A stretch of DNA of 64,000 nt from a virus: the IMG/VR virus record IMGVR_UViG_3300024262_000020, positions 1-64,000 of that record, one strand, 5' to 3'. The notes below the pieces were generated by a model. It was not told the DNA's origin and searched no databases. It was given only the letters and a program-made list of their open reading frames with translations. The position numbers were made by a program, and so were the translations under genes. This document shows, one piece after another, positions 48,834 to 50,160 of the stretch (position 1 is the stretch's first letter; each line of letters begins with the position of its first letter).

Positions 48834-48893
48834 AGAATACTATTTGGTTTCAAATTAAAAGTTTGAGTTTTTGTAGTTTGCTGTTAGTATTCT
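48834..48893 (-). ncRNA. Small CAGCAA RNA displaying a Lys(UUU)-type anticodon stem-loop
   Basis: AGAATACTA/TAGTATTCT closing stem, ACAGCAAAC, TCAAA CTTTTAA TTTGA. Confidence 0.6.
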
Positions 48894-48896
48894 TTG

Positions 48897-48982
48897 CGGA
48901 GAGCATCGGAGTCGAACCGAATACAGTTTCCCGTACACTTTGCTTAGCAGGCAAGCCCTATCACCGTTTAGGTTTACTCTCC
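48897..48982 (-). tRNA. tRNA-Ser(GCU)
   Basis: CTTGC CTGCTAA GCAAA; long variable arm. Confidence 0.85.
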
Positions 48983-49725
48983 ATATTATTTTCGTATTTT
49001 TTTAACCATTTTCTTATTGTATTATCACTTACACCATATTTTTTACCAGTTTTTGTAAAATTCGTTTTTTCTATATCGTTTAGCAATTGTTCATAAGATG
49101 GTCTATTTTTCACCTTTCTTTGTTTTATATTGTGACAATCAAAACACATTTCATTTTTTTTTAAAATTTTTTTACCACATTGACATCGATTAATTTCTTG
49201 TAATTTTTTTACTTTTTTTACCTTTACATTCCTTTTTTTACTTGCGTATGTGTCAGTTTGTGTGTGGCAATTTGGACATAAAAAACACAAATTTTCAATT
49301 CTATTATCATTATTTATCCCATTTTTGTGTTCTAATTGTAATGACAATTTTTCATTCATCCATTCACCTATATTTTTACATTTTTCGCATTTATATTCAA
49401 TTAAATTTTGTTTAATTATTCTTGCTTTTAACCGTTGTCTTGAATATGTTGAATTTTCAACAAAAACTTTTGAATTTTCAAATGCTGCTTGATATCCGCC
49501 ACTTCCGTAGTGATTATATTTTGGGATTTCTATATTGTTATTTTGACAATAATTTTTAAAAGTTTGATATCCACCACTACCATTTGTATTATATCCTATT
49601 TTATTTAAGACTTCTCTTAATGATTTCGATTCATTTAAAAGATTTTCAATATTCTCAACTCCAAAAATTTCTATTTTATTCATTTTATTCATCTTTTTAT
49701 TGTATATATAAAAATTTGAACCCAT
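48961..49725 (-). CDS. HNH homing endonuclease
   Basis: CEKC...LQLEHKNGINNDNRIENLCFLCPNCH; C-terminal HTH. Confidence 0.9.
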   Translation of the reverse strand: MGSNFYIYNKKMNKMNKIEIFGVENIENLLNESKSLREVLNKIGYNTNGSGGYQTFKNYCQNNNIEIPKYNHYGSGGYQAAFENSKVFVENSTYSRQRLKARIIKQNLIEYKCEKCKNIGEWMNEKLSLQLEHKNGINNDNRIENLCFLCPNCHTQTDTYASKKRNVKVKKVKKLQEINRCQCGKKILKKNEMCFDCHNIKQRKVKNRPSYEQLLNDIEKTNFTKTGKKYGVSDNTIRKWLKKYENNMESKPKR

Positions 49726-49738
49726 TTTTTAGTTTTGA

Positions 49739-49812
49739 TGGCACGCCTACCAAGATTCGAACTCGGACCAGGACTTTTGGAGAGTCACATGCTACCGTTA
49801 CACCATAGACGT
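49739..49812 (-). tRNA. tRNA-Trp(CCA)
   Basis: GACT CTCCAAA AGTC; G73, encoded CCA. Confidence 0.9.
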
Positions 49813-49824
49813 ATTTTGTTCTTG

Positions 49825-49897
49825 TCGGTTAGGTGAGACTCGAACTCACTATCATCGCATTAAAAGTGCGAGGCTTGACCTGTTAAGCTGCTAACCG
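49825..49897 (-). tRNA. tRNA-Lys(UUU)
   Basis: TCGCA CTTTTAA TGCGA. Confidence 0.85.
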
Positions 49898-49976
49898 TGT
49901 TGTCTGCTTCAATTTATCATAGCCAAGGATAATAAATTGTCTTAATTGGTTCCCGCCAAACAGACATAGTTTTGAG

Positions 49977-50052
49977 TGGAACCTACCAGAGTTGAACTGG
50001 TGCCTCTGGTTTTTCAGACCAGTGTACGAACGACCACCTATACGAAGGTTCC
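49977..50052 (-). tRNA. tRNA-Phe(GAA)
   Basis: CTGGT CTGAAAA ACCAG. Confidence 0.85.
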
Positions 50053-50065
50053 ATAAAAACTTTAC

Positions 50066-50160
50066 AGAATACGGACTCATTTCTGAGTTTTGAGGAATTG
50101 AACCCCTATAACAAAATTTCAGTTTGTGTTTTACCATTTGGTGTTTGCTGAAAGTATTCT
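50066..50160 (-). ncRNA. CAGCAA RNA with embedded tRNA-like arms (Phe GAA loop, T-loop)
   Basis: AGAATAC/GTATTCT stem, CAGCAAAC, AATGGTA D-like loop, ACAAA CTGAAAT TTTGT, GGGG TTCAATT CCTC. Confidence 0.6.

What the first reader, a model, noticed from the sequence alone, without database searches (positions are those of the whole stretch)
48834..50160. Two related small RNAs in the tRNA array that present isolated anticodon stem-loops (possible anticodon-nuclease decoys or Y-RNA-like RNAs)
Seen: 48834-48893 and 50066-50160 share a closing stem AGAATAC/GTATTCT(G) and an unpaired CAGCAAAC. Copy 1 carries a 5-bp stem with loop CUUUUAA, identical to the anticodon loop of the array's tRNA-Lys(UUU). 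Copy 2 carries a 5-bp stem with loop CUGAAAU (Phe GAA) plus D-like and T-like loops, and sits next to tRNA-Phe. Neither has a tRNA acceptor geometry. Inference: non-chargeable tRNA mimics with a protein-binding handle (CAGCAA), acting as decoys for Lys/Phe anticodon nucleases or as partners of a Ro/TROVE-like protein.
Basis: partly seen in the sequence, partly recalled or inferred. Interest (0 to 1): 0.75.

Follow-up and report, generated by a model that had tools for sequence, protein, structure and literature searches.

The report
Phage Y-RNA-like small RNAs mimicking tRNA
Two small RNA genes hidden between the tRNA genes of a huge phage belong to a large RNA family, which I found described in no paper, that carries one conserved "handle", displays tRNA-like parts, travels with a Ro60-shaped viral protein, and looks strikingly like the unexplained Class I RNAs of the amoeba Dictyostelium.

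Summary
On the minus strand, 48893..48833 and 50160..50065 share (A)AG + a 7-bp terminal stem + NNN-CAGCAA ... CUG(U). Copy 1 shows a Lys(UUU)-type anticodon hairpin. Copy 2 shows a D-like hairpin, a Phe(GAA)-type anticodon arm, a T-arm and a GNRA hairpin.

They are not isolated. The exact handle occurs in 73 viral and 21 bacterial/MAG contigs, with 1-9 copies per genome. In extra copies the stem covaries: 51 different stems, and 110/212 motifs have a perfect partner against 0-3 in controls. Anticodon-like loops are enriched (34/150 versus about 1 in shuffles), Lys(UUU) most of all.

Rfam's only non-tRNA match is Dictyostelium Class I RNA, below threshold but matching every defining feature.

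A Ro60-fold protein (DUF2828/DUF7788; Foldseek's top 12 hits are Ro60) is encoded in at least 40 of 49 RNA-bearing virus records (18 of 19 near-complete), often adjacent, against 1 of 32 controls. It is missing from the 87.6 kb held for this phage (about 12% of the genome) but present in its nearest relatives.

Best reading: Y-RNA-like adaptors for a phage Ro60-like protein. The decoy role is untested. Earlier notes of this scan found the same pairing on other DNA.

The parts
48833..48893 (-). Copy 1: 61-nt handle RNA (AG...CUG). With flanking A/U it is 48831-48895.
   Evidence: Model R1 63.7 bits, E 9e-13. Rfam RF01414 29.5 bits, full length. Sequence read.
48887..48893 (-). Copy 1, 5' strand of the terminal stem (AGAAUAC). 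It pairs with 48834-48840 (GUAUUCU). UA/UA extends the helix to 9 bp.
   Evidence: Fold. Covariation of this helix in the family.
48878..48886 (-). Copy 1, unpaired handle motif UAA-CAGCAA.
   Evidence: CAGCAA is invariant in the family. The spacer consensus UUA was not imposed by the search.
48850..48866 (-). Copy 1, anticodon-arm mimic UCAAA-CUUUUAA-UUUGA (Lys UUU type).
   Evidence: Sequence. The same loop recurs in 7 MFE hairpins of other members.
50065..50160 (-). Copy 2: 96-nt handle RNA.
   Evidence: Model R1 37.5 bits, E 2e-6. RF01414 19.6 bits. An RNA-library contig is identical over 50058-50206.
50145..50160 (-). Copy 2, handle 5' part: AGAAUAC-UUU-CAGCAA. The 3' strand GUAUUCU is at 50066-50072 and the final G at 50065.
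50133..50142 (-). Copy 2, D-like hairpin ACC-AAAU-GGU.
   Evidence: The same hairpin follows the handle in L135. A natural variant changes only the loop.
50111..50127 (-). Copy 2, anticodon-arm mimic ACAAA-CUGAAAU-UUUGU (Phe GAA type).
   Evidence: Recurs as ACAAA-CUGAAAC-UUUGU (L162) and AACAA-CUGAAAA-UUGUU (L135).
50092..50106 (-). Copy 2, T-arm mimic GGGG-UUCAAUU-CCUC.
   Evidence: The stem covaries in subfamily members: GUGG/CCAC, GUGA/UCAC, GACG/CGUC. In run X2, G50105>A turns a G-U pair into A-U.
50075..50088 (-). Copy 2, extra hairpin ACUCA-GAAA-UGAGU. It may be a closed acceptor-like stem.
   Evidence: Fold. Seen only in this member.
48898..48981 (-). tRNA-Ser(GCU) immediately upstream of copy 1 (its 3' end is 2-4 nt before AAG).
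   Evidence: Rfam tRNA 38.3 bits.
48741..48827 (-). tRNA-Ser(GGA), 5 nt downstream of copy 1.
   Evidence: ARAGORN.
50171..50255 (-). Long-variable-arm tRNA with anticodon UUU, 10 nt upstream of copy 2.
   Evidence: ARAGORN. The RNA-library contig spans its 3' part and copy 2.
49976..50052 (-). tRNA-Phe(GAA), 12 nt downstream of copy 2.
   Evidence: ARAGORN.

Best explanation
Both elements are small non-coding RNAs of a widespread viral family that I call handle RNAs.

How I think they work, step by step:
1. They are transcribed with the minus-strand tRNA cluster. They are set free by the enzymes that trim the neighbouring tRNAs: RNase P at the next tRNA's 5' end, and 3' processing of the previous tRNA.
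2. Each RNA folds so that its two ends pair in a 7-bp stem. The stem starts (A)AG and ends CUG(U), and an unpaired UUA-CAGCAA follows directly after the 5' strand.
3. This constant handle is the docking site for a phage-encoded ring protein with the fold of Ro60 (Pfam DUF2828 + DUF7788), as the terminal stem of a Y RNA is for Ro60.
4. The variable interior is the working end and imitates parts of tRNA. Copy 1 imitates the anticodon arm of tRNA-Lys(UUU). Copy 2 imitates a D-like hairpin, a Phe(GAA) anticodon arm and a T-arm.
5. I infer that this end brings tRNA-binding proteins to the ring, or occupies them. The most plausible targets are host anticodon nucleases or other tRNA-directed defence or processing enzymes, which would protect phage translation.

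What is shown here: the RNA family, the covarying stem, the enrichment of tRNA-like modules, the Ro60 fold of the protein and its co-occurrence with the RNAs.

What is inferred: binding of the handle to the protein, the processing route, the target proteins, and the presence of the protein gene in the part of this genome that is not held.
For: Family:
- The exact 22-base handle occurs in 73 viral loci and 21 bacterial/MAG contigs.
- Model R1 finds 1-9 copies in 48 of 52 records searched.
- In this genome it finds only the two elements.

Structure:
- Of 212 further AG-N5-N3-CAGCAA motifs with other stems, 110 have a perfect reverse complement + G 12-135 nt downstream. Reversed, shuffled and upstream controls give 1, 3 and 0.
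- There are 51 different stems.
- 5 of 7 pairs change on both sides.

RNA rather than DNA:
- 125 of 126 members lie on the strand of the nearest tRNA, and 75 of 181 lie within 20 nt of a tRNA.
- A metatranscriptome contig is identical over 50058-50206, spanning the tRNA/copy-2 junction.

tRNA mimicry:
- 34 of 150 short members have a 7-nt loop with U at position 2 and a purine at position 6, against a mean of 1.2 (maximum 3) in shuffles.
- UUU makes up 9 of 34 such loops, against 5% of the tRNAs in the same loci (p = 3e-5).
- Long members carry a T-arm, a closed acceptor and a D-arm, and hit Rfam YrlA at 29-36 bits.

Partner protein:
- PF11443 matches in 34 of 49 RNA-bearing records. The tuned profile A4 adds 6 more, giving 18 of 19 near-complete genomes.
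- Controls: 1 of 32. Only 710 of 50,697 deposited phage records carry it.
- By coordinates, the gene lies within about 1 kb of an RNA in G008, G030, G035, G013, G044, G010, G025, G043 and the giant-virus bin G038.
- The profile's best PDB hits are Ro60 (E 3e-4 and 3e-3).
- The AF2 model has pLDDT 89, and Foldseek's top 12 hits are all Ro60, full length, TM 0.52-0.62 apart from D. radiodurans Rsr at 0.40.

This phage's relatives:
- G030 (TerL 63% identical) and the 735-kb phage LR756501.1 (best deposited TerL hit, 52.5%) both encode the protein with a handle RNA beside it.

Literature:
- Bas63 gp130 is a homologue of this protein (37% identity). It is Ro60-like, counters the Ppl defence, and sits upstream of the tRNA genes, some of which the authors guessed might be Y RNAs (PMC11482910).
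- I find three handle RNAs between those tRNAs.
Against: - No DUF2828/DUF7788 gene is in the 87.6 kb held for this phage. Twelve other fragments of its clade also lack it. All of these are 3-49% complete.
- One 92%-complete RNA-bearing phage (G015) lacks the protein, as do three bacterial genomes carrying a canonical RNA (Hymenobacter, Sphingobacterium, a Cellvibrionaceae chromosome).
- The handle is not the canonical Ro-binding motif (GNCGAA / CGAA; PMC4201824 and PMC12135203), and no binding has been shown.
- Bas63 gp130 expressed alone rescues T7 on a Ppl strain, so that activity does not need the phage's RNAs.
- Only about a quarter of short members show an anticodon-like loop.
- The expression evidence is a single contig from an RNA library, which cannot exclude DNA carry-over.
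Confidence: 0.55

Rival explanations
1. Free-standing decoys. The RNAs act alone as competitive substrates or inhibitors of host anticodon nucleases (Lys-, Phe-specific and others). The handle only stabilises the RNA or marks it for processing, and the Ro60-like protein is a frequent neighbour with a separate function.
For: Anticodon-like loops are enriched and Lys(UUU) is over-represented. tRNA-Lys(UUU) is the classical target of PrrC-type nucleases (my knowledge). This array also holds four tRNA-Lys and two tRNA-Phe genes. The RNAs occur without the protein in G015 and in three bacterial genomes. gp130 works without the RNAs against Ppl.
Against: Most members lack an anticodon-like loop. The long forms lack an anticodon arm altogether. 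A purely stabilising stem would not need an invariant unpaired CAGCAA. The protein is found in 18 of 19 near-complete RNA-bearing genomes.
Confidence: 0.15
2. The handle binds a host protein, not the phage ring protein. Candidates are an RRM protein, as Rnp1A binds Class I RNAs in Dictyostelium, or the host's own Rsr. The RNAs would then be sponges or regulators of that host factor.
For: The handle matches the Class I RNA motif, whose known direct binder is the RRM protein Rnp1A (PMC7919456). The handle sequence is conserved across phages of Bacteroidota, Firmicutes and Proteobacteria. No partner gene is in the held part of this genome.
Against: The protein-RNA co-occurrence and adjacency are strong. 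No conserved host factor was identified here.
Confidence: 0.12
3. Cis-acting punctuation. The stem-closed spacers only guide or order RNase P/Z/E cleavage of the tRNA precursor and have no function once released.
For: The elements lie 2-12 nt from the flanking tRNAs. 75 of 181 members lie within 20 nt of a tRNA. Other stem-closed spacers exist in the same array.
Against: 55 of 181 members have no tRNA in the fetched locus. Tandem arrays of 5-9 units stand beside the protein gene with no tRNA between them (L130, L178). An invariant unpaired motif and tRNA-like interiors are not needed for punctuation.
Confidence: 0.08
4. Reduced or armless tRNAs that are charged and used in translation.
For: The closing stem has 7 bp followed by one base, like an acceptor stem with a discriminator. 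Copy 2 has an anticodon arm and a T-arm in tRNA order.
Against: No tRNA call by ARAGORN or by the Rfam tRNA model at E<=10. CAGCAA replaces the D-arm. Many members have no anticodon loop. The conserved 3' end is CUG(U), with the same stem sequence for different 'anticodons'.
Confidence: 0.03
5. A DNA-level element, such as a recombination or homing site or a miniature mobile element with inverted ends.
For: Inverted repeats flank a variable core. Homing-endonuclease genes lie in the array. In run X2 the neighbouring tRNA is replaced while copy 1 is kept.
Against: The orientation is strictly that of the tRNAs (125 of 126). There is an asymmetric unpaired motif, no target-site duplications were noticed, the elements resemble proven RNAs (RF01414), and an RNA-library contig covers copy 2.
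Confidence: 0.02

Closest known systems
Y RNAs bound by Ro60/Rsr, especially bacterial and phage YrlA/YrlB (Rfam RF02553; Chen et al. 2014, PMC4201824) and Yrl1/Yrl2 of Thermus phage phiLo (PMC12135203)
   Same: Small RNAs whose 5' and 3' ends pair in a stem that carries a conserved protein-binding motif, plus a variable effector module that in YrlA mimics tRNA (T-arm, closed acceptor, D-arm). Long members of this family hit the YrlA model at 29-36 bits. The co-occurring protein has the Ro60 fold.
   Different: The handle is NNN-CAGCAA, not GNCGAA/CGAA. The protein matches Pfam DUF2828+DUF7788, not TROVE (PF05731: 0 of 49 records). Many members carry only an anticodon-like hairpin. They sit inside tRNA arrays, often in several copies. 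No binding has been shown.
Class I RNAs of dictyostelid social amoebae (Rfam RF01414; Kjellin et al. 2021, PMC7919456)
   Same: Start AAG, a short covarying terminal stem, the motif (C)CUUACAGCAA directly after the 5' strand, end CUGU, about 60 nt, and a variable A/U-rich interior. RF01414 is the only non-tRNA Rfam family that both elements match, full length. L122 reaches 37.3 bits.
   Different: Scores are below Rfam's gathering score of 41.5. The elements are viral or bacterial, embedded in tRNA operons instead of having their own DUSE promoter. The known Dictyostelium binder is the RRM protein Rnp1A. The authors found no Class I RNA outside Dictyostelia. I could not test common descent, because no dictyostelid genome is held.
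Bas63 (Escherichia phage JohannRWettstein) gp130, a Ro60-like counter of the Ppl defence (PhageMaP preprint, PMC11482910)
   Same: gp130 (bas63_0130) is a homologue of the protein that travels with these RNAs (37% identity over 98% of its length). It lies directly upstream of a tRNA array that holds three handle RNAs.
   Different: The paper only guessed that some annotated tRNAs might be Y RNAs, and the handle RNAs themselves are unannotated. gp130 alone countered Ppl. No homologue is present in the held part of this window's genome.
Phage-encoded tRNAs that replace or escape host anticodon-nuclease targets (van den Berg et al. 2023, cited)
   Same: Located in phage tRNA arrays and centred on anticodon loops of nuclease-targeted tRNAs such as Lys(UUU).
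   Different: Those are complete, chargeable tRNAs. These elements are not tRNAs.
T4 stable RNAs C and D (species 1 and 2) in the T4 tRNA cluster
   Same: Unexplained small stable RNAs encoded within a phage tRNA gene cluster (annotation).
   Different: Model R1 finds no match in the T4 cluster. T4 lacks the handle.

Membership tests
CAGCAA-handle RNA family (viral; found described in no paper or catalogue) | (A)AG start, 7-bp terminal stem, CUG(U) end | tested here: met
   Both copies read AAAG...GUAUUCUGU. The stem covaries in the family.
CAGCAA-handle RNA family (viral; found described in no paper or catalogue) | Three unpaired bases and then an invariant CAGCAA directly after the 5' strand | tested here: met
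   UAA-CAGCAA and UUU-CAGCAA.
CAGCAA-handle RNA family (viral; found described in no paper or catalogue) | Significant score with the family covariance model | tested here: met
   R1 gives 63.7 bits (E 9e-13) and 37.5 bits (E 2e-6). Copy 1 was in the seed alignment. Copy 2 was not.
CAGCAA-handle RNA family (viral; found described in no paper or catalogue) | A Ro60-fold DUF2828/DUF7788 gene in the same genome | tested here: inconclusive
   None in the 87.6 kb held, but that is only about 12% of the genome. It is present in relatives G030 and LR756501.1.
Dictyostelium Class I RNA (RF01414) | Start AAG, a 6-bp terminal stem of conserved structure, end CUGU | tested here: met
   AAAG + 7 bp + CUGU in both copies. 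Features taken from PMC7919456.
Dictyostelium Class I RNA (RF01414) | 11-nt motif beside the 5' strand with U3, C6, C9, A10 and A11 invariant (consensus CCUUACAGCAA) | tested here: met
   ACUAACAGCAA and ACUUUCAGCAA carry all five. The family spacer consensus is UUA.
Dictyostelium Class I RNA (RF01414) | Rfam gathering score of 41.5 bits | tested here: not met
   29.5 and 19.6 bits.
Dictyostelium Class I RNA (RF01414) | Own promoter (DUSE about 60 nt upstream) and a dictyostelid genome | tested here: not met
   The elements lie 2-10 nt behind a tRNA in the genome of a tailed phage.
Dictyostelium Class I RNA (RF01414) | Binding by the RRM protein Rnp1A | not testable with these tools
   -
Y RNA / YrlA (RF02553) | 5' and 3' ends pair in a stem that bears the Ro-binding motif GNCGAA(N)G / CGAA | tested here: not met
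   The stem is present, but the motif is CAGCAA. Motif definitions.
Y RNA / YrlA (RF02553) | tRNA-like module (T-arm, closed acceptor, D-arm) and the Rfam gathering score of 69 bits | tested here: not met
   No YrlA match to either copy at E<=10. Copy 2 has a T-arm and a D-like hairpin in tRNA order. Other, longer members reach 29-36 bits.
Y RNA / YrlA (RF02553) | Encoded beside a TROVE-domain Ro60 gene | tested here: not met
   PF05731 matched 0 of 49 RNA-bearing records, this genome included.
tRNA (RF00005) | Cloverleaf recognised by ARAGORN or the Rfam tRNA model | tested here: not met
   No call for either element.
T4 rnaC/rnaD-type stable RNAs | Sequence or structure similarity to the T4 species 1 and 2 RNAs | tested here: not met
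   R1 finds nothing in the T4 tRNA cluster L116.

The most novel reading that the evidence does not exclude
The handle RNAs of phages and giant viruses and the Class I RNAs of Dictyostelium are one ancient RNA family. Their shared handle would be the docking site of a second, unstudied branch of Ro60-like ring proteins (DUF2828/DUF7788). The anticodon-presenting members, such as copy 1 (Lys) and copy 2 (Phe), would be baits that let this particle capture or blunt tRNA-cleaving immune nucleases.

If so, the 20-year-old question of what Class I RNAs do becomes testable through a tractable E. coli phage (Bas63). It would also reveal a new kind of RNA-guided counter-defence.
Probability: 0.25. Interest if true: 0.9.

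Novelty: new variant of a known kind. Interest (0 to 1): 0.8.

Why it matters
Ro60-Y RNA particles are known from animals and a few bacteria and phages, and what they do in microbes is still unclear. Four points make this finding matter.

- **Scale.** This second, much larger viral branch uses a different handle and a divergent ring protein. That protein is encoded in 710 of 50,697 deposited phage records, including Felix-O1-like, Listeria, Staphylococcus, Campylobacter, Vibrio and mycobacterial phages.
- **Annotation.** These RNA genes are unannotated in tRNA arrays. In Bas63 one is partly overlapped by a predicted protein-coding gene on the opposite strand.
- **Function.** Their interiors imitate tRNA parts, most often the Lys(UUU) anticodon arm. 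That points to a link with tRNA-targeting immunity.
- **Dictyostelium.** The handle matches every defining feature of the Class I RNAs, which are published as unique to social amoebae and have no known mechanism. One giant-virus bin carries the same protein-RNA pair.

For this window, the two 'odd spacers' become members of that system.

Tried and rejected
**Ideas tested and dropped**
- TROVE Pfam model PF05731: 0 of 49 RNA-bearing records. On its own this would have wrongly argued against a Ro-like partner.
- T4 rnaC/rnaD as relatives: no R1 match.
- Ideas dropped on reading the sequences: an HDV-like/theta or other small ribozyme, an integron attC-like site, permuted or split tRNA genes to be re-joined, and armless tRNAs. 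The conserved parts do not fit these architectures.

**Chance matches**
- The first scan, with the 5' motif alone, gave mostly chance hits in coding sequence. L030 lies near a DUF2828 gene but is inside a coding region.
- R1 hits at 55060-55080 and 54835-54865 (+) lie in coding sequence and lack CAGCAA.
- The spacer RNA at 50497-50560 (with a UCCCGAA/UUCGGGA helix) was tested as a canonical CGAA-type Y RNA. A 16-mer scan of viral contigs gave only chance hits in GC-rich genes. The weak YrlA hit at 50296-50349 (17 bits, E 5.3) is not significant.

**Runs that gave nothing usable**
- A single-sequence AF2 fold of the protein was useless (pLDDT 38.7). phmmer of one protein against PDB found nothing.
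- Twelve other fragments of the window's clade carry no DUF2828 gene.
- A second giant-virus-bin locus, L299, has a 25%-identical protein but no handle RNA within 4 kb.
- I tried to learn whether Dictyostelium or named giant viruses encode the protein. The search for homologous proteins and the listing of cluster members returned no organism names.
L168 and L299 are not held for genome searches.
- RNA runs other than X12 were not available. Parts of the stretch without cover in X12 are not evidence of anything.
- Literature searches found no description of these RNAs.
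Full report
**1. What is in the window.**
The window is AT-rich (about 26% G+C). It belongs to a tailed phage with a T4-type large terminase, a baseplate wedge protein and a collagen-like tail fibre. The record is 87.6 kb and CheckV rates it 12% complete.

Its terminase is closest, among deposited phages, to 630-735-kb uncultured phages; the best hit is LR756501.1 at 52.5% identity.

Between 48.6 and 51.7 kb the minus strand carries a tRNA array of about 15 genes, interrupted by an HNH and a GIY-YIG homing-endonuclease gene. 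The two elements lie in gaps of this array, on the same strand:
- Copy 1 (48893..48833) lies between tRNA-Ser(GCU) and tRNA-Ser(GGA).
- Copy 2 (50160..50065) lies between a long-arm tRNA with anticodon UUU and tRNA-Phe(GAA).

The shared 18-nt 5' motif occurs without mismatch only at these two places. Neither element is a tRNA by ARAGORN or by Rfam.

**2. A large family, not a local curiosity.**
A scan of viral contigs for the handle with its closing strand (22 fixed bases) returned 73 loci and 66 distinct elements of 45-141 nt. The same pattern hit 21 contigs of bacterial genomes and MAGs from Bacteroidota, Firmicutes and Proteobacteria.

Those loci hold many further copies with other stems. 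I tested this without selecting for pairing:
- Of 212 occurrences of AG-N5-N3-CAGCAA whose stem is not AGAAUAC, 110 have the perfect reverse complement followed by G 12-135 nt downstream.
- Reversed, shuffled and upstream controls give 1, 3 and 0.
- There are 51 different stems. Five of the seven pairs change on both sides. The rows of that alignment were chosen as paired, so one search is the fair test.

Lengths are bimodal, about 60 and about 120 nt. The A before AG (79%) and the spacer consensus UUA were not imposed by the search.

A covariance model (R1) finds only the two copies in this genome and 1-9 copies in 48 of 52 other records.

Members lie on the strand of the nearest tRNA in 125 of 126 cases. 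75 of 181 lie within 20 nt of a tRNA, but 55 have no tRNA in the fetched locus. Some form tandem arrays (L130, L178).

**3. The interiors imitate tRNA parts.**
Among 150 short members, 34 have an MFE hairpin with a 7-nt loop, U at position 2 and a purine at position 6. Shuffled interiors give a mean of 1.2 and a maximum of 3.

The commonest loop is CUUUUAA, that of copy 1. 'Anticodon' UUU makes up 9 of 34 such loops, against 5% of the real tRNAs in the same loci (p = 3e-5).

Copy 2 belongs to a subfamily found in at least three other contigs. It combines the handle, in L135 the same ACC-AAAU-GGU hairpin, a Phe-type loop, and a T-arm whose stem covaries.

The long members carry a T-arm, a closed acceptor-like hairpin and a D-arm in the permuted order of YrlA. 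They match that Rfam model at 29-36 bits against a threshold of 69.

**4. Comparison with known RNA families.**
Rfam's only non-tRNA match to both copies is Dictyostelium Class I RNA, full length:
- 29.5 bits (E 2e-4 on the 76-nt stretch, 0.009 on 3.1 kb) and 19.6 bits, against a gathering score of 41.5.
- Another member, L122, reaches 37.3 bits.

The published definition of Class I RNAs is: start AAG, a short covarying terminal stem, an 11-nt motif CCUUACAGCAA with U3, C6, C9, A10 and A11 invariant, end CUGU, about 60 nt, and a variable interior. Every one of these features is met (PMC7919456). That paper reports no Class I RNA outside Dictyostelia.

The canonical Ro-binding motif of Y RNAs (GNCGAA / CGAA) is not present.

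**5. The protein partner.**
The TROVE Pfam model found nothing in 49 RNA-bearing virus records. Earlier notes of this scan pointed to DUF2828, and I tested that myself.

- Co-occurrence:
  - PF11443 matches in 34 of 49 records.
  - A profile built from 27 of these proteins (A4) then found strong full-length matches (E 1e-158 to 1e-179) in five complete genomes that PF11443 had missed, and in G043.
  - That makes at least 40 of 49 records, and 18 of 19 near-complete ones.
- Background: 1 of 32 contigs fetched by chance motif hits, and 710 of 50,697 deposited phage records.
- Adjacency: the gene is often within 1 kb of the RNAs (coordinates).
- Fold:
  - Profile A4 has Ro60 as its two best PDB hits.
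  - The AF2 model (pLDDT 89) has twelve Ro60 structures as its best Foldseek hits over the full length, including phage phiLo Ro60 and frog and human Ro60.
- Cultured phage: the homologue in E. coli phage Bas63 is gp130.
  - It is published as Ro60-like and as a counter of the Ppl defence, with the guess that some neighbouring 'tRNAs' might be Y RNAs.
  - R1 finds three handle RNAs in the gaps of that array.
- Giant viruses:
  - One giant-virus bin contig carries a 660-aa homologue next to five tandem handle RNAs. The same contig has eukaryote-type PI-PLC and dual-specificity phosphatase genes.
  - The ESM Atlas places that protein among clusters that are mostly Nucleocytoviricota.

**6. This phage in particular.**
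No DUF2828/DUF7788 gene is in the 87.6 kb held, nor in 12 other fragments of the clade. Two relatives do encode it, each with a handle RNA beside it: G030 (TerL 63% identical) and LR756501.1. The pairing is therefore likely here but not shown.

In public runs:
- A related strain (X2) keeps copy 1 unchanged while the neighbouring tRNA is replaced. Its differences in copy 2 spare the handle and keep the T-arm paired.
- One contig from a metatranscriptome run (X12) is identical over 50058-50206. It spans the 3' part of the upstream tRNA and all of copy 2. This is a weak hint of co-transcription, not proof.

**7. Reading and limits.**
The best-supported model is a Y-RNA-like adaptor: the constant handle docks to the Ro60-like ring and the tRNA-like module engages tRNA-binding proteins. 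Binding, processing and targets are inferences.

Points against:
- The handle differs from the known Ro motif.
- gp130 alone counters Ppl.
- A few genomes have the RNA without the protein.
- Only a minority of members display an anticodon-like loop.

I found no paper or Rfam family describing these RNAs. Earlier agents of this scan reached the same reading on other genomes. That is not independent evidence, but each claim of theirs that I re-tested here held.

Noticed in passing
window 50171-50255 and 50408-50490 (-): Two tRNAs with Lys anticodons (UUU, CUU) have a Ser-like D-arm (GGCAGAG..GG..AUGC) and a GAAA-capped long variable arm. The array holds four tRNA-Lys and two tRNA-Phe in all. They may be nuclease-resistant or decoy versions.
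   Followed up: partly
window 50567-50637 (-), 50673-50760 (-), 51638-51722 (-): ARAGORN misses these tRNAs, which appear only in the permissive Rfam scan: a tRNA-His(GUG)-like gene with an odd T-loop, and two long-arm tRNAs that score as tRNA-Sec below threshold.
   Followed up: no
window 50497-50560 (-) and 49903-49968 (-): Two further stem-closed spacer RNAs in the array fold better than shuffles (z -2.7 and -2.4). The first has a UCCCGAA/UUCGGGA helix that recalls the CGAA motif of Y RNAs. A 16-mer scan found no relatives.
   Followed up: partly
window 50644-50669 (-): A perfect 11-bp hairpin (AAUUCGCAAUU-CACG-AAUUGCGAAUU) lies between two tRNAs (z -4.1).
   Followed up: no
window 40728-40800 (-): A tRNA with anticodon CUA (amber suppressor type, called tRNA-Pyl by ARAGORN) sits in a genome whose long genes are open under code 11.
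   Followed up: no
window 37765-39885 (+): Most relatives match the large terminase only from residue 115 onward. A few match from residue 2. The N-terminal 114 residues may be a separate exon or a variable addition.
   Followed up: no
window 48900-48989 and 48629-48737: In related strains (runs X2, X6) the tRNA-Ser(GCU) is replaced by 91 other letters and the tRNA-Ser(UGA) is skipped, while the flanking sequence is kept. The tRNA array therefore turns over gene by gene.
   Followed up: no
L272 7371-7443 (Bas63, MZ501086.1 about 82692-82764): A predicted handle RNA overlaps the end of the annotated hypothetical protein bas63_0137 on the opposite strand. That short CDS may be a mis-annotation.
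   Followed up: no
L178 10648-10969 (+), giant-virus bin GVMAG-M-3300009161-71: Five tandem 49-51-nt handle RNAs stand next to a 660-aa DUF2828/DUF7788 gene, on a contig with PI-PLC, dual-specificity phosphatase and IS630-type transposase genes.
   Followed up: partly
L126 6948-7355 (-), L050 1-337 (-), L130 363-650 (-): The phage tRNA arrays that carry handle RNAs also encode tmRNAs (one of them permuted) and a group I intron.
   Followed up: no
window 56348-59202 (+): A MoxR-type AAA ATPase is followed by a DUF2201 metallopeptidase/vWA protein. It is a different vWA protein and not the Ro60-like family.
   Followed up: no
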